Source: a virus (taxonomy: Duplodnaviria > Caudoviricetes). Taken from it: a stretch of 57,545 nt of DNA. The stretch spans positions 1 to 57,545 of IMG/VR virus record IMGVR_UViG_3300010413_000035. One strand, given 5' to 3'. A model generated the notes under the pieces. It was not told the DNA's origin and did no database searches. It worked only from the letters and a program-made list of their open reading frames with translations. The position numbers and the translations under genes were made by a program. Of this stretch, positions 3,524 through 27,254 are shown in pieces (positions within the stretch are counted from its first letter, which is position 1; the number at the start of each line of letters is the position of its first letter).

Positions 3524-3524
3524 A

Positions 3525-11488: not shown

Positions 11489-11628
11489 TATAATATTGAT
11501 GTTGCTTTTTTATTATGATTCATTAAAAAAATTTGAGGTTATCTAAAAATTACTAATTTAATCATGCTATATGTAAAGAAGAGCCAAAACTTGGTGGCTC
11601 TTCTTTTATGTTAATTATTAAAAAATGT

Positions 11629-11657
11629 TTGACAATGTAGCACACTTATTATATAAT
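11629..11657 (+). promoter_or_regulatory. Sigma-A promoter with TGTAGCAC box
   Basis: TTGACA-17 bp-TATAAT; box at 11636-11643. Confidence 0.85.
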
Positions 11658-12647: not shown

Positions 12648-12658
12648 GAGATATTAAA

Positions 12659-13720
12659 ATGAAAATAGCAATCGTAACAATTACGACATATTCAAATTAT
12701 GGAAATAGATTCCAATTAATAGGATTAACAAAATACTTACAAAATAAAGGGTATGAAGTAGATAATTTAATTCCCTTTTCCCCTACTTCAAAAAAGAAAA
12801 AGAAAAAAAATAATTTAAGAGCCGAGAAAAGAAAATCATTTTTTGAATTTTCACAAAAATATATAAATGAAATAAGGCTTGATGTAAATAAAGTTAATTA
12901 TGAAAAATTAATTAATGAATATGATTATTTTATAATAGGAAGTGACCAAGTTTGGCATCCCCTATTATTAAAAAAAATTCCACATCCTTTTACATTTTTA
13001 AACTTTGTACCAGATAAAAAAAGAATTGCTATTTCAGCTAGTTTTGGAATGAGCCAAATTGCTGACAGATATTTTATAAGGTATGTTGAAGGGTTAAAAC
13101 ATTTTAATAATATTTCTTTAAGAGAGCCAGAAGGCAATAATATTATTAAAAATTTATGCTTAGAAAATTATAACAATCCAGTTTTAATTGATCCTTCAAT
13201 GTTATTATCTAAAAAACAATATGCAAAACTAGGAGAACAAATAGAAAAACCAAAGAATTATATATTAACTTATTTTCTAGGGAATATAAGTAGTGATATA
13301 AGAATGAAAATTAGTGAATTATCCCTAAAATATAATTATCAAATTATAAATATAAATAATAAAAGAAATAAAAAATATTTTGTTGCATCTCCAGCTCAAT
13401 TTATATATTTAATGAATAGTTGCAATGTAGTATTTACAGATTCATTTCATGGGACTATTTTTTCAATGATATTTAGAAAACCTTTTGTAAATGTAGATTT
13501 GAAATTAAATAGACCTTCAGTACAAAGTAGAATAGATAATTTACTTTCAAAATTTAATTTTATGAATAGAAAGTTTAAAGAATTAAATACATTAAAACAA
13601 ATTATGACTATTGATTACTCACATTTTGACCCAATTTTAAAAGAAGAAAAAAATAAATTTAATGAATTCTTAGAAGGAGTAACAAATGGCAAAGAAGAAG
13701 AAACAACAAATAATTCCTAA
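12659..13720 (+). CDS. Polysaccharide pyruvyl transferase family protein
   Basis: NYGNRFQ, IIGSDQVWHP, SASFG, ISLRE, DP, TDSFHGTIFS. Confidence 0.9.
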   Translation: MKIAIVTITTYSNYGNRFQLIGLTKYLQNKGYEVDNLIPFSPTSKKKKKKNNLRAEKRKSFFEFSQKYINEIRLDVNKVNYEKLINEYDYFIIGSDQVWHPLLLKKIPHPFTFLNFVPDKKRIAISASFGMSQIADRYFIRYVEGLKHFNNISLREPEGNNIIKNLCLENYNNPVLIDPSMLLSKKQYAKLGEQIEKPKNYILTYFLGNISSDIRMKISELSLKYNYQIININNKRNKKYFVASPAQFIYLMNSCNVVFTDSFHGTIFSMIFRKPFVNVDLKLNRPSVQSRIDNLLSKFNFMNRKFKELNTLKQIMTIDYSHFDPILKEEKNKFNEFLEGVTNGKEEETTNNS

Positions 13721-14363
13721 ATTATTACACTTGATATGGATAGGGGAAAAAGAAAACCCCTATTTAAAAAATATTGAAACTTATAAAAAATTTAATCCAG
13801 ATTGGCAAATTAAAATTTGGAATAATGAAAACATACCCCAAGTTATAAATAAATATACTTATAATAATATGACTTCATGGGCAGGTAAAGTTGACGTTCT
13901 AAGGCTTGAGATTTTATATAAATATGGTGGGGTTTATGTTGATTTGGATTCAATATGTTTAAGAAGTTTAAATCCCTTAATAATAAATCAAACATTAATC
14001 GGGTCAAAAGGTACATATAAAAAAATTGCTAACGGTTTTTTAGGATGTACCAAAGAACATCCTGCATTTAAAGAAATAGTAGAAAATTTAGATTCTAGAA
14101 ATAAAGAACTTTCAAAAACAGAAAAAAACAAAAAAATTGGTATTTCAATTTATGCAGTGGCTGGGACTCGATACATAACCCCATATTTAAGAAAATATAA
14201 ATGTCTGGAATATGATAAAAAATTAAAAGCTAAAGAAAGAAAAGTTATAATTACTAAAGTTTCAAAGTATAAAAACCGAGCCTTTATAATGCAATTAAAT
14301 GATAATACATGGAAAAGTAGTCCAAGGATATTTTTAAGTGAGGATTTTGAAAATGACAAGTAA
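13686..14363 (+). CDS. Glycosyltransferase family 32 (OCH1/DxD-type)
   Basis: IPK.LH.IW, NPDW, D.LRLEILYKYGGVYVDLD, GT. Confidence 0.9.
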   Translation: MAKKKKQQIIPKLLHLIWIGEKENPYLKNIETYKKFNPDWQIKIWNNENIPQVINKYTYNNMTSWAGKVDVLRLEILYKYGGVYVDLDSICLRSLNPLIINQTLIGSKGTYKKIANGFLGCTKEHPAFKEIVENLDSRNKELSKTEKNKKIGISIYAVAGTRYITPYLRKYKCLEYDKKLKAKERKVIITKVSKYKNRAFIMQLNDNTWKSSPRIFLSEDFENDK

Positions 14364-14691
14364 AAAAGAAAAACTAATACATGATTTAATAGATGTGACT
14401 TTATTGGAATCAAATTTAAAACATGGATTTAATTTTAATTCTAGTCATGAAGGCTGGGCTGTTACTTTAGAAGAAATAGAAGAGTTTCAAGAGGCTTTTG
14501 ATGAAATTATAAATTATTTTTCCGATATTGTTTGGACTGATATTAGAAATGATTCAAATAATAGCAAATTAAAAACTGAATATTCAAAATTATATAATAT
14601 GTGTTTAAATGCCTTTTTAGAATTTTTGCAATTAACTGCAATGATGAAAAAAAACAAAAATTATTTTTTTGGGAAGGAGATAAAAAAATGA
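14353..14691 (+). CDS. MazG-like all-alpha NTP pyrophosphatase-type protein (tentative)
   Basis: FNSSHEGWAVTLEEIEE and E..Q.TAM motifs. Confidence 0.5.
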   Translation: MTSKKEKLIHDLIDVTLLESNLKHGFNFNSSHEGWAVTLEEIEEFQEAFDEIINYFSDIVWTDIRNDSNNSKLKTEYSKLYNMCLNAFLEFLQLTAMMKKNKNYFFGKEIKK

Positions 14692-15371
14692 AAAAATTTG
14701 ATGTAATTTTTTTAATGGGGGGAGAAGGGAAAAGAGCCAGACTTGGTTACCCTAAGCAATACGCTCGTATAGGTGGAATACCGATTTTTATACATTCGAT
14801 ACAAGCTTTTTTAAAAGAAGATATCGAGCCATATATAAATAAAATAATTATAGTAGCACAAAAAGAGCGATATGATGAAATAGAAAAAATGTTAATTCAA
14901 TATAATATTTTTAAATATTGTTTTTGTGAAGGTGGGAAAACAAGGCAAGAATCCGTTTATAATGGTTTAAAAAGTGTAAAGACTAAACACTTATTAGTTA
15001 CTGAATCTGTTAGACCTTTTCAAAGTTCTAAATTAATAAAAAATATAATAAATAATGAAAAAAATTTTATTACTCCAATATCTCAACCAAAAGCGACTGT
15101 TATTGATATTTTTGGCAATTCATATGACAGGGATAGAATCGGAGAGGTACAAATGCCTCAAAAATATAGTTACGATTTATTGCATACAGCTCACGAAATC
15201 GCAAAGAAAAGGGATTTATATAATTTTACAGACGATGCTCATTTAGTAATAGAATTAATAAACGAATGTCCATATATTATAAAAGGTGAAGAAGTAAATA
15301 TAAAAATAACAACTCCCCTCGATTTGAAAATAGCTAATATTATTTTAAGTGATTTGGAGGATAATGAATAA
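14688..15371 (+). CDS. IspD/TarI-family cytidylyltransferase
   Basis: GGEGKR...PKQY, GGKTRQESV.NGL, ESVRPF, QMPQ, TDD, NIKITTP.DL. Confidence 0.9.
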   Translation: MKKFDVIFLMGGEGKRARLGYPKQYARIGGIPIFIHSIQAFLKEDIEPYINKIIIVAQKERYDEIEKMLIQYNIFKYCFCEGGKTRQESVYNGLKSVKTKHLLVTESVRPFQSSKLIKNIINNEKNFITPISQPKATVIDIFGNSYDRDRIGEVQMPQKYSYDLLHTAHEIAKKRDLYNFTDDAHLVIELINECPYIIKGEEVNIKITTPLDLKIANIILSDLEDNE

Positions 15372-16003
15372 TGTTAGAATCAAAACATATAGCAATTTCT
15401 GGAACTACTAAAGGCTTGGGACTAGAATTGTCCAGACTATATTCAAAAAATAAATATTCAATAGTTGATATAAATAGATATAACGATTTAGATGTTACTA
15501 AAGAATATGCCATAAAAATTTTATTTGATGAAATACCAAAATATGAATATCCAGAAATTTTAATTAATAATGCTGGGATTTGTAATATTGGAAGTATTCT
15601 GGACTCAAATTTAGAAGAATCAAAAAAAATGTTTGATGTTAATTTTTGGGGTATGGTTAACTGCAGTAAATATTATTCTAAGAATTGCATTAAAAATAAT
15701 GTAAAAGGTAAAATTGTAAATATTGCATCAACAGCAGGAACTGGAATTAGACCTGGTCGTTCTATGTATGCAAGTAGTAAATCGGCAGTTATAAATTATT
15801 CAATGTCAATAGCTGAAGAATTAAAAATTTTTGATATTAAAGTTTATTGTATAGCTCCAGGAGCTTTTGATTCATCACTTAGAAGGAATTTGAAACTTGA
15901 TGAAGATTATTCAAAAATGAAAACATCAAAACAAGTTGCAGAAATAGTAAAAAATATTGTTGATAATGATTTTTTAGACAATCAAATAATTTATATAAAG
16001 TAA
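15371..16003 (+). CDS. SDR oxidoreductase (likely sugar-phosphate reductase partner of IspD/TarI)
   Basis: SGTTKGLG, NNAG, IAS, YASSK catalytic motif; stop/start overlap with the IspD-like gene. Confidence 0.9.
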   Translation: MLESKHIAISGTTKGLGLELSRLYSKNKYSIVDINRYNDLDVTKEYAIKILFDEIPKYEYPEILINNAGICNIGSILDSNLEESKKMFDVNFWGMVNCSKYYSKNCIKNNVKGKIVNIASTAGTGIRPGRSMYASSKSAVINYSMSIAEELKIFDIKVYCIAPGAFDSSLRRNLKLDEDYSKMKTSKQVAEIVKNIVDNDFLDNQIIYIK

Positions 16004-16019
16004 GAAAGGATATTAAATA

Positions 16020-17159
16020 ATGTTAGTAACTATAATTAATAAAGCACACTTTAAAATTGAAATTGATGGAGTTATATTTCTCCCATTTGAAATTAAAAAA
16101 TTGAATGTTTATAGTACATCGGAATTTTATAAAAAAATAAGATGTAATAAAAATTTGGTTGATGAGGCTATATTTGATATAAAACATTTTAAAAAGACTT
16201 TTGGAATTGACAAATTAGGCAAAGAGTTTAATTTTGTTTATGATGAAAATAGCCAACATAAAAGGGATAATTATAAATTTGCCATTCAAGCAATGGCAAA
16301 TCCTATTTTAAAATATTTTTCACCAAAAGAGGCTGGATTTTCAAGTCGACCATTACCTGGTCAAAGTTACAACGCTTTAAATATTAGGTTTTTTAATTCA
16401 ACTAGAATAAAACAAAATGGGAAAACTCAAGTTGGTAAGCGTGATATTTTTTATTCACATGGTTGTGCCGATAAAAATTACTGGTTAGGAAAACATATTA
16501 AGGATTTTAAATATGCCTTTTGTATTGGCAAAGTATGGGAGGATAGAATGAGAGCCACAGGTTATAAAGGCGAAATAATACATATTGGATATCCAAAATT
16601 AGACCCAATTTGGAATAATGAAGTAGAAGAAAATAAAATTGAGGCTGGTAATAAGCCTTATATTGCGTGGTTGCCTACACATGGATATTCACATAAAAAT
16701 CGTGGTCGTTCCAGTTACCCTTGGTGTCTTGATTTAATAAGGGACATTGATGATATATATTATAAAAAATTAGGTATGCATCCAACTAGTAAAAAACATA
16801 ATGGAATTAAGCACAAACCAACATTTAACGAGTTAGTTGATGCAGATGTTATAATTGCCGATGCAGGATCGACAGTTTACGAGGCGTGGATGGTAGGAAA
16901 ACCTGTCATTATGCCAGATTGGATTTGCAAAAAAGATATTTTAAATCATTTTAAAAGTGACAATTTAGAATATCAAATTTATAAAAAGGGTATTGGATAT
17001 CATGCAAAAGATATGAGACATTTAAACCAGCTTATTGAAAAGGCTTTAGTTGATGGAATTGATCAAAGTGCCAAAGAATTCATCGAGAAAATTTGCCCGA
17101 CCGAATATAGAGGAAATTCTGGAAAAATGGCTTATAAAGCGTTAAAACAAATATATTAA
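16020..17159 (+). CDS. CDP-glycerol/ribitol phosphotransferase (TagF/TarL-like GT-B fold)
   Basis: HG, GYPKLD, W.PT, HP, ADVII.D.GS.VYE...GKPV motifs. Confidence 0.8.
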   Translation: MLVTIINKAHFKIEIDGVIFLPFEIKKLNVYSTSEFYKKIRCNKNLVDEAIFDIKHFKKTFGIDKLGKEFNFVYDENSQHKRDNYKFAIQAMANPILKYFSPKEAGFSSRPLPGQSYNALNIRFFNSTRIKQNGKTQVGKRDIFYSHGCADKNYWLGKHIKDFKYAFCIGKVWEDRMRATGYKGEIIHIGYPKLDPIWNNEVEENKIEAGNKPYIAWLPTHGYSHKNRGRSSYPWCLDLIRDIDDIYYKKLGMHPTSKKHNGIKHKPTFNELVDADVIIADAGSTVYEAWMVGKPVIMPDWICKKDILNHFKSDNLEYQIYKKGIGYHAKDMRHLNQLIEKALVDGIDQSAKEFIEKICPTEYRGNSGKMAYKALKQIY

Positions 17160-17161
17160 TC

Positions 17162-17214
17162 TTTACTATTATTAAATAATGTGCTACAATGTATATAAAG
17201 CGTAGTACATTATT
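17162..17214 (+). promoter_or_regulatory. Promoter with inverted operator pair upstream of the primase operon
   Basis: TTTACT-17 bp-TACAAT; AATAATGTGCTAC...GTAGTACATTATT inverted repeat. Confidence 0.65.
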
Positions 17215-17233
17215 TTTTTATGGGGAGTTTAAA

Positions 17234-17626
17234 ATGGAATTTAAAAAATACAATGTGCCATATGAAAATTTTAATATAGAATTTAATTTAAATGATATTT
17301 TAGTTTTAACACAAAATGAAGATATCAACTGGGATATAAATATGTCATGGAATAAATTTGAGTTTAAAGGTGAATTTATTAATCATACTTTTAAAATATA
17401 TTTAGATTGCAACAATATTTATAAAAGTTATGTTTGTTATAAGAAAAAATATATAACTGTTCCTTGTTTTATTCCAGAAGAATTGATCGAAGGATATATA
17501 TTTTTAGTATTTAATTTTAAAAGAAACATTCCTTTAACTAATTATTTTCTAAGCTTCTTAGATGATTTTTTATGGCTTTTGAATATAAATATTAATGATT
17601 TAAAACTAACTTTTGTGGAGGATTAA
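17234..17626 (+). CDS. Hypothetical protein
   Basis: GGGGAG RBS before ATG 17234. Confidence 0.65.
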   Translation: MEFKKYNVPYENFNIEFNLNDILVLTQNEDINWDINMSWNKFEFKGEFINHTFKIYLDCNNIYKSYVCYKKKYITVPCFIPEELIEGYIFLVFNFKRNIPLTNYFLSFLDDFLWLLNININDLKLTFVED

Positions 17627-17630
17627 TTGT

Positions 17631-18689
17631 ATGAGTTATCAAGATTTTGCAACAACAAATAAAATAATAAGAAATTCATTAAAAGAAATACTTATTTATT
17701 ATGGAGCTAAACCTTCCAAAAATGGAAATTGGGACTGTCCTAGAACTTCATATCATCACAATCCTCAAGGGGATTTGAGTTATAATGGAAAAACATGTGT
17801 TTGTCATTGTGGCTTAAGTGGAGATTCATTTAAAACTATTGCAATGATGGAAGGTTTAAACCATAGGGACAAAGAAGATTTTAAAAAAATAACTAAAATA
17901 GCTATGGATATTTTAAATCTAACTAGGGAAGAATATCAACAAAAAGCAAATGAAGAAAAAAAAGAAACTAAGAAAGAATTATTTTTAGATGAAAAAATAA
18001 AGCAATTACTAACTAATACAATTAATAATTATTTTGATAACACTAAAAAGTATAAAAAAGATTATGAATATTTTTTTAAGAGAGGATTAACCAATGATAT
18101 TATTAAAGCCAATAAAATTATAGTTGAAAATCCTGTAAAACTATTCAAAGGGGAATTAATTAAACATCTTCCAAGTGTTAAAAACATTTGGAGCTATAGA
18201 TATATAATTCCTATTTGGGAAAATAACAAGGTAATAAATATTTTATTAAGAAGGGATGACAACTTGTCAACAAAGGGAATTAAAATTTTAAACCTTAAAA
18301 ATATCCCTTTAGGCTTTTATAATATAGATAAAATAAAAAAAGTTTCAAATGAAAATATATTTATTTGTGAGGGGTTCTTTGATGCAATAACTATTGAAAG
18401 ATATGGACATATTTCATTGTCTATTAACTCAACGAATTTAATTTATAAATTTATGGCTAAAATAGAAAAGTTTAATATAGAAAATTGTAATTTTTATATT
18501 TGCTTTGATAATGACTCAACTAAAAAACATAACTGGGGACAAATTTGGGCAAAGAAATTAATTAAGGAATTGAAAAAGAAAGGATTTAATTCTAAAACAA
18601 TAGTTATAAAAGACTACAATGATTTAAATGATTACTATTTAAATGATTATACAAAATTTAAGGAATCACTTAATAAAATAACAAGTTAG
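17631..18689 (+). CDS. DnaG-like DNA primase (Zn-finger + TOPRIM)
   Basis: CP...H...CxCxCG..GD N-terminus; ICEGFFDA, CFDND, DLND. Confidence 0.85.
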   Translation: MSYQDFATTNKIIRNSLKEILIYYGAKPSKNGNWDCPRTSYHHNPQGDLSYNGKTCVCHCGLSGDSFKTIAMMEGLNHRDKEDFKKITKIAMDILNLTREEYQQKANEEKKETKKELFLDEKIKQLLTNTINNYFDNTKKYKKDYEYFFKRGLTNDIIKANKIIVENPVKLFKGELIKHLPSVKNIWSYRYIIPIWENNKVINILLRRDDNLSTKGIKILNLKNIPLGFYNIDKIKKVSNENIFICEGFFDAITIERYGHISLSINSTNLIYKFMAKIEKFNIENCNFYICFDNDSTKKHNWGQIWAKKLIKELKKKGFNSKTIVIKDYNDLNDYYLNDYTKFKESLNKITS

Positions 18690-18859: not shown

Positions 18860-19040
18860 TAGTATTATAGAAATAAATATTATTTAGTGGTAAGTGTTGA
18901 GCCAATTGGCTCTTTTTTTTATGCTTAATTATACTAGTATTTTTCTAATTAGATAAATAAGTTCTAATTATAACTTTTTAAATTATAAATGTTATAATAA
19001 CCCCATAAGTCGACGGACTGTAAAAACGGGAGGAGAAATC

Positions 19041-19691
19041 ATGTATAAACAAATCAAAAAATATTTAAAATTTCTATTTTTAGCACCAGTATTTCCTATT
19101 ATTGGGGTCGAGGGAGCTACCGTTAACGATGAAGGGTCAACAAATGAATCTTCAGAAGGCGAAAATAATAATGATAATAATGGTAATGAAAATAATACTA
19201 ATGAAAGCAAAGAAAAAACATTTACTCAGGCTGAATTAGATATTATTGTTGGGAATAGGTTAAAAAAAGCCGAGAAAAAATTTCAAACAGAACATAAACT
19301 GGCTTTAGAACGTGAAAAGTTAAATGATGTTGAAAAATTAAAGCTAGATTTAGAAAATGAAAGAAAAAATACAGATAGTAAAATAGCAATGGCAAACTCA
19401 AGATTAATTAAATCTCATGCAATATCGGAATTAACAAAAGAAAATGTTATTGATATTGATGCTGTTTATGCTTTGTTAAACAAAGACAATATTGAAATTG
19501 ATGACAATGGAAATATTACTGGAGTTAAAAATGCTATTACATTATTAAAAAAAGAAAAACCTCATTTGTTTAATAATTCAACCCAAGTTATAAGAGCAGG
19601 AGATGATAGTAACCAAGGTGGAACTCCAGCTCCAAAAGGTAAAAATTTTGATATGAATTATTTATTAAGAAAAGCGACAGGAAGACTATAA
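19041..19691 (+). CDS. Capsid scaffolding protein
   Basis: KTFTQAELD, coiled coil, KPHLF; directly upstream of the major capsid gene. Confidence 0.85.
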   Translation: MYKQIKKYLKFLFLAPVFPIIGVEGATVNDEGSTNESSEGENNNDNNGNENNTNESKEKTFTQAELDIIVGNRLKKAEKKFQTEHKLALEREKLNDVEKLKLDLENERKNTDSKIAMANSRLIKSHAISELTKENVIDIDAVYALLNKDNIEIDDNGNITGVKNAITLLKKEKPHLFNNSTQVIRAGDDSNQGGTPAPKGKNFDMNYLLRKATGRL

Positions 19692-19714: not shown

Positions 19715-20701
19715 ATGGCAAGTTATATTTCAAGAGCAAACGTAAGTCCGTTAATGCCAGAAGAATTTCAAAGGGAGATTGTTCAAAGTGTTGCTGAACA
19801 GTCAATTATAATGCAAGTATCCAAAAGACTGTCAAATATGGCAAGAGGTCAAAGAAGAATCCCAGTTCTTAGTGCTTTACCAACGGCTTATTTTTCAAAT
19901 CCAGGTAGTAGTGCTGAGGATAATGATATTCCATTCAAAAATACTACTAAAATGCAGTGGGCGAATAAATACATTGATGCTGAGGAGCTAAATGTAATAA
20001 TTGCCATTCCAGAGTCTGCACTTGATGACCAAGATTATGACTTATGGGGGGAAATTAAACCTAAATTGCTTGAAGCTTTTGGACTTGCATTTGATAAAGC
20101 AGTTTTATATGGAATTCAAGCTCCATCAAGCTGGGCGACTAATATATATACGGCATCCCAAGCTGCAGGAAATTTTGTTGAACTATCAACTGGTGCAAGT
20201 GCTAGTCTTTATGATGACATTTTAAGTGAAGGTGGAGTCATTCAAAAGGTAGAGTTAGATGGCTATATGGCATCTGGTCATATTGCAGATATGTCAATGA
20301 GGGCTAAACTAAGAGGTGTCAAAGATTCAACTGGTCAACCAATTTTTAAAACTGTATATAAAGATGGTATGCAAGGTGGGACTAATTATGAGCTTGACGG
20401 TGAAATGATGTATTTTCCTAGAAATGGTTGCATGATTCCAGAAAGTGCTTTGATGTTTTCAGGCGATTGGAGTCAATTAGTTTATGCAATAAGACAAGAT
20501 ATTTCATGGAAAATATTAGACCAAGCCGTTATTCAAGACCCATCAACTGGAGCTATAGTTTACAATTTAGCACAGCAGGACATGGTTGCATTAAGGGGAA
20601 CTATGAGACTTGGATGGCAAGTTCCAAACCCAATTAATAGAGTTCAAAGTGATTCTACTAAAAGATATCCATTTGCTGTATTAGGAGTTTCTGGAAGTTA
20701 A
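19715..20701 (+). CDS. Major capsid protein (HK97 fold)
   Basis: FDKAVLYG, LRGVKDSTGQPIF, GDWSQ, NLAQQDMVALR; ends in GS. Confidence 0.9.
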   Translation: MASYISRANVSPLMPEEFQREIVQSVAEQSIIMQVSKRLSNMARGQRRIPVLSALPTAYFSNPGSSAEDNDIPFKNTTKMQWANKYIDAEELNVIIAIPESALDDQDYDLWGEIKPKLLEAFGLAFDKAVLYGIQAPSSWATNIYTASQAAGNFVELSTGASASLYDDILSEGGVIQKVELDGYMASGHIADMSMRAKLRGVKDSTGQPIFKTVYKDGMQGGTNYELDGEMMYFPRNGCMIPESALMFSGDWSQLVYAIRQDISWKILDQAVIQDPSTGAIVYNLAQQDMVALRGTMRLGWQVPNPINRVQSDSTKRYPFAVLGVSGS

Positions 20702-20743
20702 TTATAACTTCCTTCCTTTAATTTTTTTTAGAAAGGTGATTAA

Positions 20744-21001
20744 ATGCCCAAAATAATATTTTTAAAACCATGTTACTACAAAGGTAAAAAATTTGATAAA
20801 GATACAATTTTAGATATGCCCTTAAATACAATTCTGGAATATAAAAAATTTGGGAAAGTAAAATTTTATTTTGGGAAATCTAAAAAGATTGAAGATTACA
20901 GTTATAATGAATTACAAAAATTTTGTAAATCTAAAGGTTTGAGAGCAGTTGGTAAAAAGTGTGAGTTGCTTGAAGAATTGAAAAGGAATGACATAATATG
21001 A
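20744..21001 (+). CDS. Small head-associated protein with C-terminal SAP/Rho-N-like motif
   Basis: YNELQKFCKSKGL..VGKK.ELL..L. Confidence 0.65.
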   Translation: MPKIIFLKPCYYKGKKFDKDTILDMPLNTILEYKKFGKVKFYFGKSKKIEDYSYNELQKFCKSKGLRAVGKKCELLEELKRNDII

Positions 21002-21204
21002 TTCAAAAAGATTTTTCTCCAGATGGTGGGAAAATGATCCAAAGGGACGGCTCAATATTTTATTTAAGTGATTTATTAAATACTTTATACAATGCGAGTA
21101 ATAATGGTTATGAAGCTTTAAAAATTTTTGATATTGATAGATGTATGATTAATAATGGTTTAATGTTTCAAACTGGTAATATTTATACTAGCTTATGCAA
21201 TTAA
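20998..21204 (+). CDS. Hypothetical protein
   Basis: AAAGGA RBS, overlaps the previous stop. Confidence 0.55.
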   Translation: MIQKDFSPDGGKMIQRDGSIFYLSDLLNTLYNASNNGYEALKIFDIDRCMINNGLMFQTGNIYTSLCN

Positions 21205-21243
21205 TGTAAATTTTATGTTTTATGATATGGGTTGTGATGTATA

Positions 21244-21441
21244 ATGCCTTATTCACTTAATAACAAACCTGAATTTTTAAATCAACTTCCAAAACAAGCA
21301 CAAAGAATTTTTATAAATGCTTTTAATAGTAGTTATGAAAAAAATAAAAATGATGAAATAGCAACAAAAACAGCGTGGTCTGCAATTAAAAAAGCTGGGT
21401 TTAGTAAAAATAAAGACGGAATTTGGAGGCGATGGAATTAA
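21244..21441 (+). CDS. ChaB family protein
   Basis: MPY...LP.QAQRIF.NAFNS...A...AWSAIK...K..DG.W. Confidence 0.85.
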   Translation: MPYSLNNKPEFLNQLPKQAQRIFINAFNSSYEKNKNDEIATKTAWSAIKKAGFSKNKDGIWRRWN

Positions 21442-21875
21442 TGTATATTACACCAACAGAATATAATACAATTACTGGAAGAGACTCAACCGAGGCAACA
21501 ACTATTAGAATAACATTATCAAGTAAATTACTTGATTCAAGAATAGGCAATTATCCGACATTTGAGGATATTGGCTATAAAATTAATTCTAGTTGGCAAG
21601 TTGAGGAAGATGGGGTCAATACTACATTAACCAAAAGTAAAAAAGATGCCATCCAAATGTGGGTCGCTCAAATGGTAAGTTATTTATATGACAATAATGA
21701 TACACCACCAACTTCTGAAAGTGGAGTCAGTTTAGGTCGATTTTCAGTTAATGGAAGTTCTAATATTTCTGATATTCCAGATGAGGTTAAGTATGCTGAT
21801 AGTATTCTAATATCAAGTGGAATTATAAATCGCAAAGTTGGAAGATACAGAAGGAATGAGTTATATGACTTCTAA
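21441..21875 (+). CDS. Head-tail connector/adaptor
   Basis: MYIT..EY start, SLGRFSV, synteny. Confidence 0.7.
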   Translation: MYITPTEYNTITGRDSTEATTIRITLSSKLLDSRIGNYPTFEDIGYKINSSWQVEEDGVNTTLTKSKKDAIQMWVAQMVSYLYDNNDTPPTSESGVSLGRFSVNGSSNISDIPDEVKYADSILISSGIINRKVGRYRRNELYDF

Positions 21876-22209
21876 AGTAATTTATAATAAATTAATGAAA
21901 CACAAAGTAAATTTAAAAAAATTAAAGAGAAATTCTTACGGGGATTTTACAGTTTTATCTACTACAACAGGTTTAAAAGGGTTTGTGCAATATGGCGAGA
22001 AATTAATTACAAAAGAAAATAAAGAAATTGTAACTTGTACTGCAATTGTTTTTTTAAAAGATAATTGTGGTATTGATATCAATTGGGAATATTGGCAAAT
22101 TGACCAAACATATCCATATGTAAGAAGTGGATTAATGGTACAAAATATCGACCCAGTTGATGACCCAAGAAGTGGGAAAACTCACCATTTTGAAATTTTA
22201 GTTAAATAA
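21865..22209 (+). CDS. Head closure (stopper) protein
   Basis: Beta-rich, ends HHFEI; synteny. Confidence 0.65.
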   Translation: MTSKVIYNKLMKHKVNLKKLKRNSYGDFTVLSTTTGLKGFVQYGEKLITKENKEIVTCTAIVFLKDNCGIDINWEYWQIDQTYPYVRSGLMVQNIDPVDDPRSGKTHHFEILVK

Positions 22210-22220
22210 GGAGATATATT

Positions 22221-22598
22221 ATGGCAAGTATTAGGTGGAAGGAATGGAACGGAGACGAGTGTTTAGAATTAATTGTAAAAGCTTGTGGTGTTGGTATAGA
22301 TGAGTGGTTAGAACTTGTAAAATCTATATCACAACGAGAAGTCCCACTCGATGAGGGTTCATTAATGAAAAGTTGCTATATAATGTCAAAAATATCAAAA
22401 ACTAAAATTGATGGGTCTATTAGTTATGGTGGTGGTAGTGGGACTGGAATTCCTAGAATCCCATATGCTGTAAGATGGCATTTTGAAGATGCTAATTTCC
22501 AACATGGAAGAAAAAATAATTATTTAAAAGACCCTACTTATAACAATATTTCTAAAATACAAGATTTTTGTAAAAAAAGAATTGGAGGGGTCTTATGA
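22221..22598 (+). CDS. Neck/tail completion protein (HK97 gp10-like)
   Basis: VPLDEGSL..S and PYAVRWH. Confidence 0.75.
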   Translation: MASIRWKEWNGDECLELIVKACGVGIDEWLELVKSISQREVPLDEGSLMKSCYIMSKISKTKIDGSISYGGGSGTGIPRIPYAVRWHFEDANFQHGRKNNYLKDPTYNNISKIQDFCKKRIGGVL

Positions 22599-23005
22599 TA
22601 GCAAATCAAGTTTGTAATTTTTTTAATGGTAAATATGGACTTGTAAAGGAAACTAATTTATTTGTTGGGTTTAGACCAGACACACCTAATAATTTAGTTG
22701 CTATTTATGACAGCACTGCTCCACCTTTACCAGAAAGTAGTTGTTTAAGCATTGACCAGGTTGGAATAGAAATAATTGTAAGACATTCCAATTATGAAGA
22801 TGCTGCGACTTTTTGTTGGAATTTATATTATCAATTAATTGGTTTTGGGGGACGTGAGCTGGTTGAAGATGGGAATATTATTAGTTATATAATTCAAGAC
22901 CAAACCCCATATAGTATCGGAAAAGATGATAATAATAGAAATGAGTGGGGAACTAATTTAATTGTAAGGTTTGAGCCAAAACAAGTAAATAATTTTAGAT
23001 TATAA
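22595..23005 (+). CDS. Tail terminator (minor capsid 3-like)
   Basis: LFVG.RPD.P, IGKDDNNR.EW..N. Confidence 0.75.
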   Translation: MIANQVCNFFNGKYGLVKETNLFVGFRPDTPNNLVAIYDSTAPPLPESSCLSIDQVGIEIIVRHSNYEDAATFCWNLYYQLIGFGGRELVEDGNIISYIIQDQTPYSIGKDDNNRNEWGTNLIVRFEPKQVNNFRL

Positions 23006-23020
23006 AAGGAGTTGTTTTAT

Positions 23021-23446
23021 ATGCCTGAAGTAAAATTTGGAAATACCGTTGTTGAGATTGATGATGTAGTTATTGCAAAAATTACAAGTTGGACTGCATC
23101 TTCCGAAATAAGTGAGGAAGATGTAACTGGCAGTGAAGATGTTGTGGCAGGATCAAATGTCTTATCACAAGTTTATACACCAATCGCAGTGTCTAAAACA
23201 TGTGAAGTTGAAGGAATAGTCATAGAATCCGAGTCAGTTGGAAGAGATTATGGTCAATCGGCTTTAAAAACTGCAGCTGATAGTGGGAAAATGGTAACTG
23301 TAAAAGAAACAAGAAATACAGGTCATGGGAATGCTAGTACTGGCTTTTTTACATCTTATGAAGAAAGTGCCTCAACATCTGAGGTTTATAAATTTAAAGG
23401 GACTTTTAGGGTAAATGAGACTACACCAATTACACCAGGTTCTTAA
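23021..23446 (+). CDS. Major tail tube protein
   Basis: EEDVT, GQ.AL..A, G.FTSYEES; synteny; ends in GS. Confidence 0.8.
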   Translation: MPEVKFGNTVVEIDDVVIAKITSWTASSEISEEDVTGSEDVVAGSNVLSQVYTPIAVSKTCEVEGIVIESESVGRDYGQSALKTAADSGKMVTVKETRNTGHGNASTGFFTSYEESASTSEVYKFKGTFRVNETTPITPGS

Positions 23447-24167: not shown

Positions 24168-27100
24168 ATGGGAGTTATAGTTGGACAGTTAGAAGTTCAA
24201 ATTAACGGAGACGCCTCTAATCTTTCATCTAGTTTAAACAATATAAAAAGTGATGGTTTGAAATTTACAAGCAGTTTACAAGGAAATGTTAGTAATTTAT
24301 TGAGTAGTTTTGGTGGCTTAGGTAGTGGAATTAGTGTCGCTTTAACTGGAGCTATTACACTTTTTGATACAATTGGAAATGCAATTAAATCAGTTGGTAC
24401 TAATTTAACTCAATATTTAACTGTTCCATTGGCAGCTGCTTCGACAGCCGTTTTTACTTTTGGGAAAAATTTTGAATCTGAAATGTCAAAAGTTACCGGA
24501 CTTGTTGGGGTATCAACAGACCAAGTTGACGAATGGGGAACTACTATTTTAGATTTAGCTCCTACGATTGGGCAAACCCCCCAAAATTTAGCCGAGGGAC
24601 TTTTTTATGTTACAAGTGCTGGAATAAAAGGAGCAGAGGCGATGGAAGTTTTAGAAATGTCTGGAAAAGCAGCCTCTGCTGGGTTAGGCGAAACTGCAAC
24701 AATAGCCGATTTAGTTACCTCGGCTATGAATGCTTACGGCTCGGAAAACTTAAGTGCATCCCAAGCGACAGATATACTTGTTGCAGCCGTTCGGGAAGGT
24801 AAAGCCGAGGCATCGGAACTCGCAGCCTCAATGGGGCAGGTTTTGCCGATTGCAAGTGAAATGGGGGTATCATTCGACCAAGTCGCAGCTGCCCAGGCTG
24901 CAATGACACGTACTGGGACGAGTGCAAGTGAGGCAAGTACGCAATTAAAAGCAATAATGAGTGGGTTGTTAAAGCCTTCTGTCCAAGCCGAGGAGGCATT
25001 GGCTGGAATGGGAACATCAAGTGCAGAATTAAGAAAAAGTATTAAAGAAAAAGGATTAATTAGTACTTTAGGTGATTTAAGAACTTTGACAAATAAATAC
25101 GGTGAGGACGCTATGGCTAAGGTATTTCCTAACATTAGAGCCTTGTCTGGTGTCCTTGATTTAATGGGGTCAAATGCTGACGATAATATTGAAATATTCG
25201 ACAGTGTTGCTGATAGTACTGGTTCATTAGATAAAGCTTTTCAGTCTGCAGCTGAAACTGCCGATTTCAAATGGAATCAAGCTTTAAGTCAATTACAAAG
25301 TACGGCAATCACTTTTTTTGATACTTTAAAAGTTGCAGCAATCCCAATATTAGAAAAATTAGTTGAAGTATTAAAGTGGGTCTCGGATTCTTTTAATTCA
25401 TTATCTCCAACAATGCAAAAAGCTACTTTAATTTTTGCGACAGGTTTGGCTGTCCTCGGACCAGCTTTGACACTAATAGGGACGGCAATATCGGCACTTA
25501 TACCAACTATACTTGGAATTGCGACCACTTTTCTGGCTGTTACTACTTCAGTTATTTTATTTGGGGGAATAATGGCTGGAATCATTGCAATAATATCAGC
25601 AGTTGTTGTTGCAATAGGAGGCTTAGTTGCATCTTTTATAAAATTATATAAAAGTAATGCAGAATTTAGAAAAAACGTGCAGACTACATGGAATAAAATA
25701 AAAGAAACAGCAATTGATGTTTTTAATTATATAAAATTAATTATTACAAAAACTTTTAATAAAATAAAAGAATTTTGGGATAAACATGGGGAAACTATTT
25801 TAAATATTTTTGAAAAAGTATGGAATGTAGTTTTAAATATAATAAATGATGCTTTAACTTTTATACAAACTATAATAAAATCAGCGACATCAATTATAAA
25901 CGGTGATTGGGAAACTGCTTGGAATTTAATTAAAGATTTATTTTCCCAAAAATGGGAAGAGATAAAAACTGTATTCTCAACTGTATTTTCAATATTAGTA
26001 AATTATGCAAAACAAAAATTTGTAGAGTTAAAAGATGCAATAGTAGCTAAATTAATTGAAACAAAAAATTCAATTGTTGAATGGTTTGTTAATTTGCCAA
26101 CAATGGCAGCAGAGCAATTGGAATTATTTAAAACTTCAATTCAAACTAAATTTGATGAAATTAAAGAAAATATTTTATTAAAACTTGAAGAATGGAAACA
26201 AGCTATTATTGAATGGTTTCAAACAATGCCAGAAAATTTAGTATCATTATTGGAATCATGGAAAGAAATTTTAATAAATTATTTCAATGAACAAAACGAG
26301 GAAAATAAAAAACAATTTGCAATATGGTGGGAGGCTATTAAAGAATGGTTTACATCAATACCAGAAAAAATCAAAGCAAAACTTGAAACATGGAAAGAAA
26401 CTATTATAAATTTTTATAATGAAACTAAAGAAAAAATAGCTACTAAATTAAATGAATGGTGGGAGACTATTAAAACATGGTTTTCTAATGCTCCAGGGAA
26501 AATTAAAGGATTTTTGAATAATTGGTGGAATACTATGGCTCAATGGTATGAAAACGCAAAAGCCAAAATAAAAACCAAATTGGAAGGCTGGTGGCAAACT
26601 ATAAAAAGTTGGTTTTCATCAGTTCCCGAAAAATCCGAAATTAAAAATTCTGGGTCAAAAATGGTGGATAAAATTGCCAAAGGGGCAAAAGATAAAAAAT
26701 CAGATTTTACGGAAAAACTAGGGAAATTAATTGTTGATGTAGCATTGGCAGCATTAGCAGTCGCAGCCGTTACTTTAGTCGCAACTGGTCGAGAAATTGT
26801 AAAAAGAATAATTTCTGGGGTTGGAAAAGTTAGTTTAAAAAGTGCTGGTCAAAAAATTGTAAAATCTTTATTGTCTGGAATTAAATCAATGTATTCTAAC
26901 GTGTCAAATGTTTGTTATTCGTTAGCATCTAAGATTAGAGATTTTTTCCCTTTTAGTCCTGCAAAAGTCGGACCTTTAAAAGATATTGACAAAATGGACT
27001 TTGGAACTTCAATCGCAAAAAGTATTAACAAATCTTATGTTGATGTAATTCCATCTGTCGGAAATTTAGCCGAAACAATTAGTGGGGGATTAATTAATGA

Positions 27101-27254
27101 TATGGAATCAGCCAATTTAAGTGTAGCTGGGGCAACAACTGGAAAAAGTTTAAGTATTGGAAATATTAATGTTGATACTGTTCAAGATGCAACTGAATTT
27201 TTAAAAGAATTAAAAAAAGAAATTACAAAAAGGACTGGAAGTAGGTTTTTATAA
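24168..27254 (+). CDS. Tape measure protein (TP901 core, Trp-periodic repeats)
   Basis: FESEMSKV core, hydrophobic segment, regularly spaced W/F, FPFSPAK.GPL. Confidence 0.92.
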   Translation: MGVIVGQLEVQINGDASNLSSSLNNIKSDGLKFTSSLQGNVSNLLSSFGGLGSGISVALTGAITLFDTIGNAIKSVGTNLTQYLTVPLAAASTAVFTFGKNFESEMSKVTGLVGVSTDQVDEWGTTILDLAPTIGQTPQNLAEGLFYVTSAGIKGAEAMEVLEMSGKAASAGLGETATIADLVTSAMNAYGSENLSASQATDILVAAVREGKAEASELAASMGQVLPIASEMGVSFDQVAAAQAAMTRTGTSASEASTQLKAIMSGLLKPSVQAEEALAGMGTSSAELRKSIKEKGLISTLGDLRTLTNKYGEDAMAKVFPNIRALSGVLDLMGSNADDNIEIFDSVADSTGSLDKAFQSAAETADFKWNQALSQLQSTAITFFDTLKVAAIPILEKLVEVLKWVSDSFNSLSPTMQKATLIFATGLAVLGPALTLIGTAISALIPTILGIATTFLAVTTSVILFGGIMAGIIAIISAVVVAIGGLVASFIKLYKSNAEFRKNVQTTWNKIKETAIDVFNYIKLIITKTFNKIKEFWDKHGETILNIFEKVWNVVLNIINDALTFIQTIIKSATSIINGDWETAWNLIKDLFSQKWEEIKTVFSTVFSILVNYAKQKFVELKDAIVAKLIETKNSIVEWFVNLPTMAAEQLELFKTSIQTKFDEIKENILLKLEEWKQAIIEWFQTMPENLVSLLESWKEILINYFNEQNEENKKQFAIWWEAIKEWFTSIPEKIKAKLETWKETIINFYNETKEKIATKLNEWWETIKTWFSNAPGKIKGFLNNWWNTMAQWYENAKAKIKTKLEGWWQTIKSWFSSVPEKSEIKNSGSKMVDKIAKGAKDKKSDFTEKLGKLIVDVALAALAVAAVTLVATGREIVKRIISGVGKVSLKSAGQKIVKSLLSGIKSMYSNVSNVCYSLASKIRDFFPFSPAKVGPLKDIDKMDFGTSIAKSINKSYVDVIPSVGNLAETISGGLINDMESANLSVAGATTGKSLSIGNINVDTVQDATEFLKELKKEITKRTGSRFL

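What the first reader, a model, noticed from the sequence alone, without database searches (positions are those of the whole stretch)
19715..23446. Major capsid and tail tube both end in Gly-Ser: possible glycan acceptor tags
Seen: the capsid ends ...AVLGVSGS* and the tail tube ends ...TTPITPGS*; neighbouring structural proteins do not end this way. Known: glycosylated mycobacteriophages (e.g. Che8) carry O-glycans on the C-terminal serine of capsid and tail tube, added by phage glycosyltransferases. Inference: these are the acceptors for the 11.9-17.2 kb enzymes, which would extend virion glycosylation to a Firmicute phage with different chemistry.
Basis: partly seen in the sequence, partly recalled or inferred. 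Interest (0 to 1): 0.75.

Follow-up and report, generated by a model that had tools for sequence, protein, structure and literature searches.

The report
Terminal-serine tags on phage capsid, tube
An uncultured 57-kb phage and all its known relatives end both the head-shell protein and the tail-tube protein in a serine and carry, beside the head genes, enzymes that make and transfer a sugar-alcohol phosphate, so the virus particle is probably coated with a teichoic-acid-like tag, a chemistry not yet shown for any virus particle.

Summary
The capsid protein (19715-20701) ends GVSGS. The protein at 23012-23446 ends TPGS and folds as a tail tube.

The constant feature is the terminal Ser, not Gly-Ser:
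- Related loci: 42 of 42 distinct capsids and 33 of 33 distinct tubes end in Ser.
- Large protein database: the 120 best capsid homologues all end in Ser, as do 75 of 77 tube homologues.
- The residues before the Ser vary, and both Ser codon boxes are used.
- No other of 14 conserved genes keeps its last residue.

Every relative with enough sequence carries a three-gene core: an IspD-like cytidylyltransferase, an SDR reductase and a 379-aa protein whose fold is closest to the teichoic-acid enzymes TagF and TarL. The other glyco-genes vary between relatives.

That clade is a single origin. Elsewhere in the same capsid family, though, 3 of 5 Ser-ending capsids are followed at once by glyco-enzyme genes (one a true TagF-family domain), against 0 of 60 capsids that end otherwise.

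Che8 and Corndog, the known glycosylated phages, also end both proteins in Ser.

Best reading (about 0.6): a virion alditol-phosphate decoration on the terminal Ser. No experiment supports this yet, and the host is unknown. Earlier unchecked notes of this scan record similar tags on other DNA.

The parts
11575..11606 (+). Terminator-like hairpin (12-bp stem) that closes the preceding head-gene unit
11629..11657 (+). Promoter-like site, TTGACA-17-TATAAT (12 of 12), in front of the enzyme cassette
   Evidence: This is a consensus match only; function is not shown.
11931..12647 (+). Nitroreductase-family protein. Accessory gene, present in only some relatives.
   Evidence: Pfam PF00881 E 5e-18; distribution among relatives
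12659..13720 (+). Polysaccharide pyruvyl transferase family protein (accessory gene)
   Evidence: Pfam PF04230 E 7e-30; distribution
13686..14363 (+). DXD-motif glycosyltransferase (Gly_transf_sug, with a TcdA/TcdB-like catalytic region). Accessory gene.
   Evidence: Pfam PF04488 E 3e-16, PF12919 E 7.5e-8. Present in only part of the clade.
14338..14691 (+). 117-aa protein of unknown function (phrog_25385)
14688..15371 (+). IspD-like cytidylyltransferase (core gene). Presumed to make a CDP-alditol or CDP-ketose. The longest ORF starts at 14601.
   Evidence: Pfam IspD E 2e-35. NCBIfam ispD 142.6 bits; ribitol-5-P cytidylyltransferase subfamily 92 bits, below its cutoff of 166. Conserved in the clade.
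15371..16003 (+). Short-chain dehydrogenase/reductase (core gene). Presumed sugar-phosphate to alditol-phosphate reductase.
   Evidence: Pfam adh_short E 2e-31; conserved in the clade
16020..17159 (+). p379: TagF/TarL-like alditol-phosphate transferase (core gene) with an extra N-terminal beta-rich part
   Evidence: The window protein has no Pfam hit. AF2 pLDDT 90. Foldseek: TagF E 1.3e-9, TarL 8e-9. VIA Z: 18.2 TarL, 18.1 TagF, 17.2 capsule polymerase, against 14.6 or lower for other GT-B proteins. A distant homologue passes PF04464. Nearest Atlas clusters carry PF04464.
17189..17626 (+). 145-aa protein of unknown function, found only in the closest relative
17613..18689 (+). Toprim-domain DNA primase, the last gene of the same unit
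   Evidence: Pfam Toprim_2, phrog_47
18899..18912 (+). Terminator-like hairpin plus a run of T after the primase
19041..19691 (+). Head scaffolding protein
   Evidence: Pfam PF06810; phrog_194 and phrog_2303
19715..20701 (+). Major capsid protein (HK97-type), ending ...AVLGVSGS
20696..20698 (+). Codon of the capsid's terminal Ser (AGT), the proposed acceptor
   Evidence: invariance
20693..20712 (+). 8-bp hairpin followed by a T-rich tail, overlapping the last two capsid codons and the stop. Terminator-like.
   Evidence: Relatives have other sequence here.
22595..23005 (+). Tail terminator protein
   Evidence: Pfam PF12691 E 1.5e-12
23012..23446 (+). Tail tube protein, ending ...ITPGS. The probable start is the ATG at 23021.
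23441..23443 (+). Codon of the tube's terminal Ser (TCT), the proposed acceptor
   Evidence: invariance
24168..27254 (+). Tape-measure protein. Included for context, as it fixes the tube's position in the tail module.
   Evidence: 1028 aa, helical and Gly/Ala-rich; homologues in relatives

Best explanation
The terminal serines of the major capsid protein and the tail tube protein are acceptor tags for a phage-encoded decoration system.

The conserved core of that system has three enzymes:
1. An IspD-like cytidylyltransferase and an SDR reductase, which together would make a CDP-alditol (CDP-ribitol is the most likely product).
2. p379, a TagF/TarL-like transferase, which would pass alditol-phosphate from that donor to the tag. 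It could act on the Ser hydroxyl directly or on a first sugar.
3. Variable add-on enzymes, which would elaborate the product. In this window they are a DXD glycosyltransferase, a pyruvyl transferase and a nitroreductase-like protein. In relatives they include methyltransferases, GT2 and NeuB.

The result would be a virion with a teichoic-acid-like, anionic surface layer. It would be analogous in logic, but not in enzymes, to the O-glycan coat of mycobacteriophages Che8 and Corndog.

Shown here: the tags, their invariance, the enzyme families and folds, and the co-occurrence. Inferred: the donor, the acceptor, the linkage, and any biological role such as shielding or adhesion.
For: 1. Invariance. 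Terminal Ser is found in 42 of 42 capsids and 33 of 33 tubes in the related loci, and no other of 14 conserved genes has an invariant last residue. In the large collection it is 120 of 120 and 75 of 77. Positions -2 to -4 of the capsid show 10 to 12 residue types. Both Ser codon boxes are used.

2. Co-occurrence.
- 39 of 39 module-bearing genomes have Ser, against 2 Ser and 27 other among relatives with no module seen in at least 6 kb upstream.
- The two nearest tube relatives without p379 end otherwise. L107 ends GEGGEG on both proteins. L040 ends ..ATT and ..GAT.

3. Independent repeats in the same capsid family.
- L043 (..AGGS) is followed at once by a protein with PF04464 Glyphos_transf (E 1.7e-10) plus a Nucleotid_trans domain.
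- L068 (..AGGS) is followed by a Nucleotid_trans glycosyltransferase.
- L030 (..FQAS) is followed by four GT2-type genes.
- That is 3 of 5 Ser-ending loci, against 0 of 60 loci with other endings (Fisher p 2.3e-4). The three loci sit on separate branches of the tree.

4. Enzyme identity. p379's fold is closest to TarL and TagF. IspD and SDR genes lie directly upstream of it in all relatives with enough sequence.

5. Parallel with known cases. Che8 and Corndog end both proteins in Ser. Corndog's glycosyltransferase genes also lie just upstream of its capsid genes.

6. Exposure. Capsid relatives carry an about 80-aa PEGA/CarboxypepD_reg domain fused at the same C-terminal point. The tube fold is that of lambda V, whose C-terminal extra domain faces outward (the orientation is established knowledge, not tested here).

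7. Lifestyle. No integrase or recombinase was found in the 57.5-kb record. That argues against a lysogenic-conversion role.
Against: - No chemical evidence exists for any member of this clade.
- The main clade is one origin: 41 rows form one branch with SH-aLRT 100. Its perfect co-occurrence therefore counts as a single event.
- TagF-family enzymes are known to act on glycopolymers, not on protein serines.
- Distant p379 relatives occur with the same IspD and SDR partners in non-phage regions of Clostridia genomes (L179), where a cell-envelope acceptor is the natural reading.
- The cassette has its own consensus promoter and flanking terminator-like hairpins, and it includes a primase. So it is not simply part of the late head operon.
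- In other phages, distant TagF-like genes (29-38% identity) lie between terminase and portal genes, but their capsids end ..KIGA..TLNT and ..LASS. Only 1 of 3 ends in Ser.
- Two Ser-ending capsids (L039, L064) have no glyco-gene next to them.
- p379 members also give weak Pfam hits to UDP-GlcNAc 2-epimerase: 30 of 42, best E 9e-5.
Confidence: 0.6

Rival explanations
1. The IspD-SDR-TagF-like cassette modifies a host envelope polymer during infection, such as a wall teichoic acid, capsule or S-layer glycan. The purpose could be to block superinfection or to stop progeny re-adsorbing to debris. Under this reading the terminal serines are conserved for an unrelated reason.
For: - All characterised members of the TagF family act on glycopolymers (PDB titles).
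- The same trio, or IspD plus a GT1, occurs with distant p379 homologues in non-phage regions of Anaerovorax and Syntrophomonas genomes.
- The cassette has its own consensus promoter and flanking terminator-like sites, as morons do.
- The variable accessory glyco-genes would also fit a changing host surface.
Against: - No integrase, recombinase or repressor module was found, so there is no lysogen to convert.
- This reading leaves unexplained why the only two proteins with an invariant last residue are the two major surface proteins, and why it is the same residue in both.
- It also leaves unexplained why Ser-ending capsids elsewhere in the family have glyco-genes directly next to the capsid gene, 3 of 5 against 0 of 60.
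- The phage p379 has about 80 extra N-terminal residues that the cellular forms lack.
Confidence: 0.17
2. The terminal Ser has a structural or assembly role, or is modified by some other enzyme (for example a host one). Its co-occurrence with the cassette reflects shared ancestry only.
For: The module-bearing genomes form a single clade, so the main association is one evolutionary event. Two Ser-ending capsids outside the clade have no glyco-gene beside them.
Against: - A structural role seldom fixes only the last residue while the preceding three or four vary freely.
- The capsid and the tube have unrelated folds, yet both fix the same residue.
- Unrelated phages known to be glycosylated at the C-termini show the same pattern.
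- The independent repeats L043, L068 and L030 are not explained.
Confidence: 0.1
3. The cassette decorates something else in the phage, such as a receptor-binding or other minor virion protein, or the DNA, rather than the capsid and tube termini.
For: GT-B enzymes include phage DNA glucosyltransferases (established knowledge). The cassette contains a primase. The acceptor has not been tested.
Against: - No hydroxymethylase or other base-modification gene was seen in the window. Many ORFs have no assigned family, however.
- CDP-alditol chemistry is not known for DNA.
- No other conserved virion protein carries a conserved end tag.
Confidence: 0.05

Closest known systems
Virion O-glycosylation of mycobacteriophages Che8 and Corndog (Freeman et al. 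2023, Cell Host Microbe 31:1216). The paper is not held; I know it from citing passages in PMC12619734, PMC12363180 and PMC11256854, and from recall.
   Same: - Both major surface proteins, capsid and tail tube, end in Ser. Che8 ends ..TGS and ..DGS; Corndog ends ..VGS and ..GDS.
- The modifying enzymes are phage-encoded.
- In Corndog the enzyme genes lie just upstream of the capsid genes, as they do here.
   Different: - There is no sequence similarity between any window enzyme and Che8 gp108-110 or Corndog gp34-38. The lowest blastp E among the enzyme-to-enzyme pairs is 0.047.
- The conserved transferase here is TagF-like and is paired with CDP-alditol synthesis, so the product would be an alditol-phosphate rather than a plain O-glycan.
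- The capsid and tube of this clade belong to other sequence families.
- The host is unknown, and the genome is low in G+C (about 25%).
TagF / TarL wall-teichoic-acid CDP-alditol phosphotransferases (PDB 3l7i-3l7m, 8va1; Pfam PF04464)
   Same: - They are the best structural matches to p379: Z 18.2 and 18.1 over about 305 residues.
- p379 has WAPTHG and ADAGSTLYEA segments where TarL has FAPTFRG and SDYSSLIYEY.
- A donor-synthesis pair is encoded next door.
   Different: - The window protein does not reach any Pfam threshold.
- Identity is only 12-14%.
- p379 has an extra N-terminal beta-rich part.
- The proposed acceptor is a protein end, not a polymer.
TagF-like capsule polymerases of Actinobacillus pleuropneumoniae (PDB 8qoy, 8a0c)
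   Same: Same fold: Z 17.2 and 16.1. They also build sugar/alditol-phosphate polymers.
   Different: These are large multi-domain enzymes that make free capsule polymers.
CDP-ribitol synthesis pairs: TarI/TarJ, and the fused Bcs1-type enzyme (IspD-like domain plus SDR domain). These names are recalled.
   Same: An IspD-family cytidylyltransferase is followed by a reductase. PHROG 3142 aligns the SDR to the C-terminal half of a 596-position profile.
   Different: The match to NCBIfam's ribitol-5-P cytidylyltransferase subfamily is 92 bits, below its cutoff of 166. The alditol could therefore be another one, for example glucitol.
Ribitol-phosphate on mammalian alpha-dystroglycan (ISPD, FKTN, FKRP), and phosphoglycerol or phosphocholine on neisserial pilin serines. 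Both are recalled.
   Same: These are precedents for an IspD-made CDP-alditol feeding a protein-linked glycan, and for phosphodiester groups on protein Ser.
   Different: The transferase families are unrelated. Neither case involves a virus particle.

Membership tests
Che8/Corndog-type virion glycosylation system | Major capsid and major tail (tube) proteins both end in Ser | tested here: met
   Window..GVSGS and ..TPGS. Che8..KTGS and ..SDGS. Corndog..LVGS and ..KGDS.
Che8/Corndog-type virion glycosylation system | Glycosyltransferases homologous to Che8 gp108-110 or Corndog gp35-38 | tested here: not met
   blastp of the operon proteins against these sequences. Among the enzyme-to-enzyme pairs the lowest E is 0.047 and the alignments are short.
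Che8/Corndog-type virion glycosylation system | Glycan shown on the C-terminal peptides of virion proteins | not testable with these tools
   This needs mass spectrometry of particles or of co-expressed proteins.
TagF/TarL CDP-alditol phosphotransferase family (PF04464) | Two-Rossmann-domain fold closest to TagF/TarL | tested here: met
   Foldseek: TagF E 1.3e-9, TarL 8.2e-9. VIA Z 18.2 and 18.1, against 14.6 or lower for epimerases and other GT-B proteins. Model pLDDT 90.
TagF/TarL CDP-alditol phosphotransferase family (PF04464) | Sequence match to Pfam PF04464 above its gathering score | tested here: not met
   The window protein has no hit at E<=1. Of 42 family members, 4 give weak hits (best E 4.2e-4) and 30 give weak Epimerase_2 hits. 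A distant homologue, L178:9854-10798, scores 33.1 bits against a cutoff of 22.1.
TagF/TarL CDP-alditol phosphotransferase family (PF04464) | Catalytic histidines and nucleotide-binding motifs | tested here: inconclusive
   H147, H221, H254 and H328 are invariant in the family. The APT and SDxSS-type segments line up through the L178-TarL alignment. No residue-level superposition was available. My equation of SHGIGDK with the family's WHGTPLK motif is recalled only.
TagF/TarL CDP-alditol phosphotransferase family (PF04464) | Transfers alditol-phosphate from a CDP-alditol | not testable with these tools
   An enzyme assay is needed. The context supports it: IspD and SDR lie adjacent in all relatives with enough sequence.
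CDP-ribitol synthase pair (cytidylyltransferase plus reductase) | IspD-family cytidylyltransferase of the ribitol-5-P subfamily | tested here: inconclusive
   Pfam IspD E 2e-35. NCBIfam NF001183 (ribitol-5-P cytidylyltransferase) scores 92 bits, below its cutoff of 166. The ispD equivalog scores 142.6, below its cutoff of 181.3.
CDP-ribitol synthase pair (cytidylyltransferase plus reductase) | Adjacent NAD(P)-dependent reductase | tested here: met
   adh_short E 2e-31. The gene starts at the cytidylyltransferase's stop (15371) and is conserved with it. Its substrate has not been tested.
Siphophage tail tube proteins | Tail-tube fold, and a position between the tail terminator and the chaperone and tape-measure genes | tested here: met
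   Foldseek matches MttP, 80alpha, lambda V, SPP1 and GTA tube proteins.

The most novel reading that the evidence does not exclude
p379 is a protein-directed TagF-like enzyme. Using its extra N-terminal part, it would recognise the free C-terminal Ser of the capsid and tube subunits and join ribitol-phosphate to it by a phosphodiester. The variable enzymes would then extend this to a teichoic-acid-like chain. That would be the first protein-anchored teichoic-acid-like polymer and the first alditol-phosphate coat on a virus. The terminal Ser would then be a general 'decorate me' code. Unrelated enzyme families would read it in phages of unrelated hosts: GT families in mycobacteriophages, and TagF-like, Nucleotid_trans and GT2 enzymes here.
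Probability: 0.35. Interest if true: 0.85.

Novelty: new variant of a known kind. Interest (0 to 1): 0.72.

Why it matters
Virion glycosylation is so far documented only for a few mycobacteriophages, where it shields particles from antibodies.

If this reading holds, three things follow:
- A terminal Ser on capsid and tube would be a simple sequence mark for predicting decorated virions in metagenomes.
- The repertoire would extend from sugars to alditol-phosphates made by teichoic-acid-type enzymes.
- A large, uncharacterised group of viral TagF-like proteins would gain a function. The nearest Atlas clusters have 50-100 members and are mostly viral.

An anionic, variable coat could affect particle stability, adhesion to surfaces or mucus, recognition by hosts and grazers, and phage engineering. 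The claim is directly testable with recombinant proteins, although the phage itself is uncultured.

Tried and rejected
- Complex prediction of p379 with the tube protein (alignments A1 and A2). The job never ran. It yields no result either way.
- Freeman et al. 2023 could not be read. The exact attachment residue in Che8 is therefore not verified here.
- Myrna. Its capsid could not be identified in the 50-kb stretch I fetched. The tail sheath protein gp122 and gp123, which I presume to be the tube, end ..DTAI and ..TTTV. I left this open.
- Nucleotide-level explanations, all rejected. The two genes use different Gly and Ser codons. The tube's end does not overlap the next gene's ribosome site. 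The hairpin over the capsid's last codons is specific to this window and its closest relatives.
- Sequence searches of p379 against PDB chains found nothing at E<=10. Pfam, PHROGs and NCBIfam found nothing for the window protein.
- The tube protein has no match among 50,697 deposited phage genomes. The capsid has none above 50% identity.
- Distant viral TagF-like genes (L154, L155, L164) served as a further independent test. Their capsids end A, T and S, which is uninformative.
- Host assignment from MAG bins was rejected because the bins contradict each other.
- Literature searches found no report of such a virion modification. The terms 'bacteriophage, capsid, ribitol phosphate, TagF' gave 37 papers holding at least 3 of the 4 terms, 15 listed. 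'CDP-ribitol, phage, virion' gave 1 paper, on a wall-teichoic-acid receptor. A search on glycosylated virion proteins was also negative. I judged these by titles and abstracts only.

Full report
**What is there.**
The window is a whole virus record of 57,545 bases with about 25% G+C. It has a siphophage layout. In order it encodes a ParB-methyltransferase, small and large terminase, portal, minor head protein, an enzyme cassette (11931-18689), scaffold (19041-19691), major capsid protein (19715-20701), connector proteins, tail terminator (22595-23005), a 144-aa protein (23012-23446), chaperone and tape measure.

The 144-aa protein matched no family library and no deposited phage genome. Its model, built on 34 sequences (pLDDT 75), matches tail-tube proteins of monocin, 80alpha, lambda, SPP1 and GTA. 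Calling it the tail tube is therefore justified. No other structural protein of the window ends in Ser.

**Is it more than chance?**
I collected relatives from IMG/VR by capsid (80 loci kept of 584 confirmed), by tube (26 loci) and by p379 (63 loci). A further 11 loci came from species genomes.

- Within the clade that shares this tube, 42 of 42 distinct capsids and 33 of 33 distinct tubes end in Ser.
- For 12 other conserved genes the last residue varies. The next most constant are IspD (E in 36 of 39) and one adaptor (R in 33 of 41).
- In the 5.8-billion-protein collection the 120 best capsid homologues (58-100% identity) all end in Ser: 97 GS, 11 VS, 9 AS, 2 IS, 1 QS.
- There, 75 of 77 tube homologues end in Ser (63 PGS). 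The two exceptions are the most distant, at 44% and 37% identity.
- Capsid positions -2, -3 and -4 show 10, 11 and 12 residue types.
- The terminal Ser is written with AGY in 34 and TCN in 11 of 45 distinct capsid genes, and with AGY in 24 and TCN in 12 of 36 tube genes.

The constraint therefore acts on the protein and on the last residue. Gly at -1 is common but dispensable.

I rejected nucleotide-level explanations. The window's two genes use different codons for Gly-Ser. The small hairpin over the capsid's stop is not conserved in relatives.

**The enzymes.**
The cassette encodes, in order:
- a nitroreductase-family protein;
- a polysaccharide pyruvyl transferase;
- a DXD glycosyltransferase;
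- a small unknown protein;
- an IspD-like cytidylyltransferase;
- an SDR reductase;
- a 379-aa protein (p379) with no family hit;
- a 145-aa unknown protein;
- a primase.

p379 has 137 homologues, all unnamed and without Pfam domains. Its model (pLDDT 90) is closest to the teichoic-acid polymerases TagF and TarL and to TagF-like capsule polymerases. Foldseek E is 1e-9 to 3e-8. VIA Z is 18.2, 18.1 and 17.2, against 14.6 or lower for UDP-GlcNAc 2-epimerases and other GT-B enzymes.

At sequence level the link is indirect:
- The window protein has no Pfam hit even at E<=1.
- Of 42 family members, 4 touch PF04464 weakly and 30 touch Epimerase_2 weakly.
- A 34%-identical homologue from a Syntrophomonadaceae MAG passes PF04464, at 33.1 bits against a cutoff of 22.1.
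- The nearest ESM-Atlas clusters carry PF04464 and are mostly viral.

An IspD-type cytidylyltransferase with a reductase is the known route to CDP-ribitol or a related CDP-alditol (established knowledge; the specific alditol is not settled).

**Which genes travel with the tag.**
Across the clade only IspD, SDR and p379 are constant. They lie just upstream of primase, scaffold and capsid. In one complete genome they lie elsewhere (L102).

The rest is a changing set: DXD glycosyltransferase, pyruvyl transferase, nitroreductase-like protein, methyltransferases, GT2, a MurB-like fragment and NeuB.

The table counts distinct capsids.

| Group | End in Ser | End otherwise |
|---|---|---|
| Module in the genome | 39 | 0 |
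| At least 6 kb upstream seen, no module | 2 | 27 |
| Too little upstream sequence to tell | 9 | 36 |

Four of the nine Ser-ending capsids in the last row belong to the clade by their tube.

The two nearest tube relatives that lack p379 end differently. In L107 (a provirus, 43% complete) both proteins end GEGGEG. In L040 (71% complete) the ends are ..AATT and ..VGAT.

However, the module-bearing rows form one clade in the capsid tree: 41 rows with SH-aLRT 100, in a quick IQ-TREE search that replaced an unfinished careful one. This perfect association is therefore one evolutionary event, not 39.

**Independent repeats.**
I then looked at the capsid relatives outside the clade that happen to end in Ser.
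- Five have sequence downstream of the capsid gene.
- In L043 (..VPAGGS) the next gene encodes a 594-aa protein with a PF04464 TagF-family domain (E 1.7e-10, 40.9 bits) and a Nucleotid_trans domain. A methyltransferase follows.
- In L068 (..TTAGGS) the next gene is a Nucleotid_trans glycosyltransferase.
- In L030 (..EPFQAS) four GT2-type genes follow.
- L039 and L064 have none.

As a control I scanned the first two ORFs of at least 100 aa downstream of the capsid gene in the 60 non-clade loci whose capsids end otherwise. That covers 114 ORF positions; identical proteins were scanned once. None has a glycosyltransferase or TagF-type hit at E<=1e-3.

The result is 3 of 5 against 0 of 60, Fisher p 2.3e-4. 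The three positives lie on separate branches. L068's sister L075 ends ..LTA and has no such gene.

I dropped L102 and L146 from this control because they belong to the clade. L003, L010, L041, L048 and L065 were dropped because no downstream ORF was available.

**Comparison with the known case.**
- Che8's capsid gp6 ends ..NKTGS and its major tail protein gp11 ends ..YSDGS.
- Corndog's gp41 ends ..PLVGS and gp49 ends ..IKGDS. Its glycosyltransferase genes gp35-38 lie directly upstream of the protease and capsid genes.
- Passages in PMC12363180 name Che8, Corndog and Myrna as glycosylated, with Che8 gp110 and Corndog gp38 as the essential transferases.
- A passage in PMC12619734 says the glycans are at the C-termini of capsid and tail-tube subunits.
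- I could not read the primary paper.
- None of the window's enzymes resembles the mycobacteriophage transferases.

The logic is the same but the machinery is different.

**Exposure of the ends.**
Some capsid relatives carry an about 80-aa PEGA/CarboxypepD_reg beta-sandwich fused at exactly this C-terminal point. This suggests that the end is free and on the surface. In the tube model the last strand (127-140) is followed by the free TPGS. In lambda V an extra domain at that end faces outward (established knowledge).

**What speaks against the reading.**
- TagF-type enzymes are known only on glycopolymers.
- Distant p379 homologues occur with IspD and SDR (L179), IspD and GT1 (L180), or a nucleotidyl transferase and GT1 (L177, L178) in non-phage regions of Clostridia genomes.
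- The cassette has a perfect consensus promoter (11629-11657) and terminator-like hairpins on both sides, and it includes a primase. This resembles an autonomous unit rather than part of the late operon.
- Distant TagF-like genes in other phages sit between terminase and portal, but their capsids end A, T and S.

Against the host-envelope rival, I found no integrase, recombinase or repressor in the record. That rival also does not explain the tags.

**Verdict.**
The acceptor idea passes the proposed test and an independent one, but the tag is Ser rather than Gly-Ser, and the relevant enzymes are the three-gene alditol-phosphate core.
- The host is unknown: clade genomes are binned into Clostridiales, Spirochaetes, Bacteroidales, Ignavibacteria and archaeal MAGs.
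- Nothing has been shown chemically.
- Earlier notes of this scan reached the same reading for this window's cassette and describe similar terminal-Ser tags on other DNA. They are unchecked AI notes and I did not count them as evidence.

Noticed in passing
L107:7315-7887 and L107:10001-10435: In a provirus with a related capsid (54% identity) and tube (44%), both proteins end in the same GEGGEG tail instead of Ser, and no p379 is present. This may be a different shared end tag. The capsid ORF there appears to be split in two.
   Followed up: partly
L040:8642-9619 and L040:11566-11961: In this more distant relative both the capsid and the tube end in Thr (..PAATT and ..SVGAT). No p379 was found in the 71%-complete record.
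   Followed up: partly
L071-L074, L078, L080 (e.g. L072:4044-5234): These capsid relatives carry an about 80-aa PEGA/CarboxypepD_reg-like beta-sandwich fused to the C-terminus, a built-in decoration domain.
   Followed up: partly
L003 (capsid end), L046: These capsid relatives have Pro/Thr/Ser-rich tails (..TPPSTPSTPSTP and ..TDTDQPTPATSP). The tails look like linker or O-glycosylation-type sequence.
   Followed up: no
window 11575-11657 and 18899-18912: The enzyme cassette plus primase is bracketed by terminator-like hairpins and preceded by a 12-of-12 sigma-70 consensus promoter. It may be a self-contained transcription unit inside the head module.
   Followed up: partly
L170-L176: Whole phage genomes of this clade (58-60 kb contigs) are binned into MAGs labelled Clostridiales, Spirochaetes, Bacteroidales, Ignavibacteria and archaea. 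These are probably binning errors, so the taxon labels say nothing about the host.
   Followed up: no
L179:9962-12112: Anaerovorax odorimutans DSM 5092 has a short p379-like gene followed by IspD and SDR genes in a non-phage context. A second copy has IspD and a GT1 next to an Amidase_3 gene (L180). This may be the cellular source of the phage trio.
   Followed up: partly
L154:8806-10813, L155:7930-11281, L163:9968-11517: In unrelated 68-70 kb and smaller phages, distant TagF-like genes sit between the large terminase and portal genes. Their partners are a glycosyltransferase, a small cytidylyltransferase-like gene or an SDR.
   Followed up: partly
L155:11624-14454: A reverse transcriptase (phrog_1423, E 6e-110) lies next to a tail protein gene. 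This may be a diversity-generating retroelement.
   Followed up: no
L061:2429-3729 (= L144): The p379 homologue of this relative is read as two ORFs (199 and 206 aa). This could be a frameshift or a sequencing error.
   Followed up: no
window 3507-4787: A fused ParB-like nuclease domain and DNA methyltransferase (phrog_498, E 1e-130) lies at the start of the packaging module. Similar fusions occur in L154 and L163.
   Followed up: no
window 21244-21441: A ChaB-domain protein (Pfam E 4e-15) lies among the connector genes, and a SAP-domain protein lies at 20744-21001 directly after the capsid gene.
   Followed up: no
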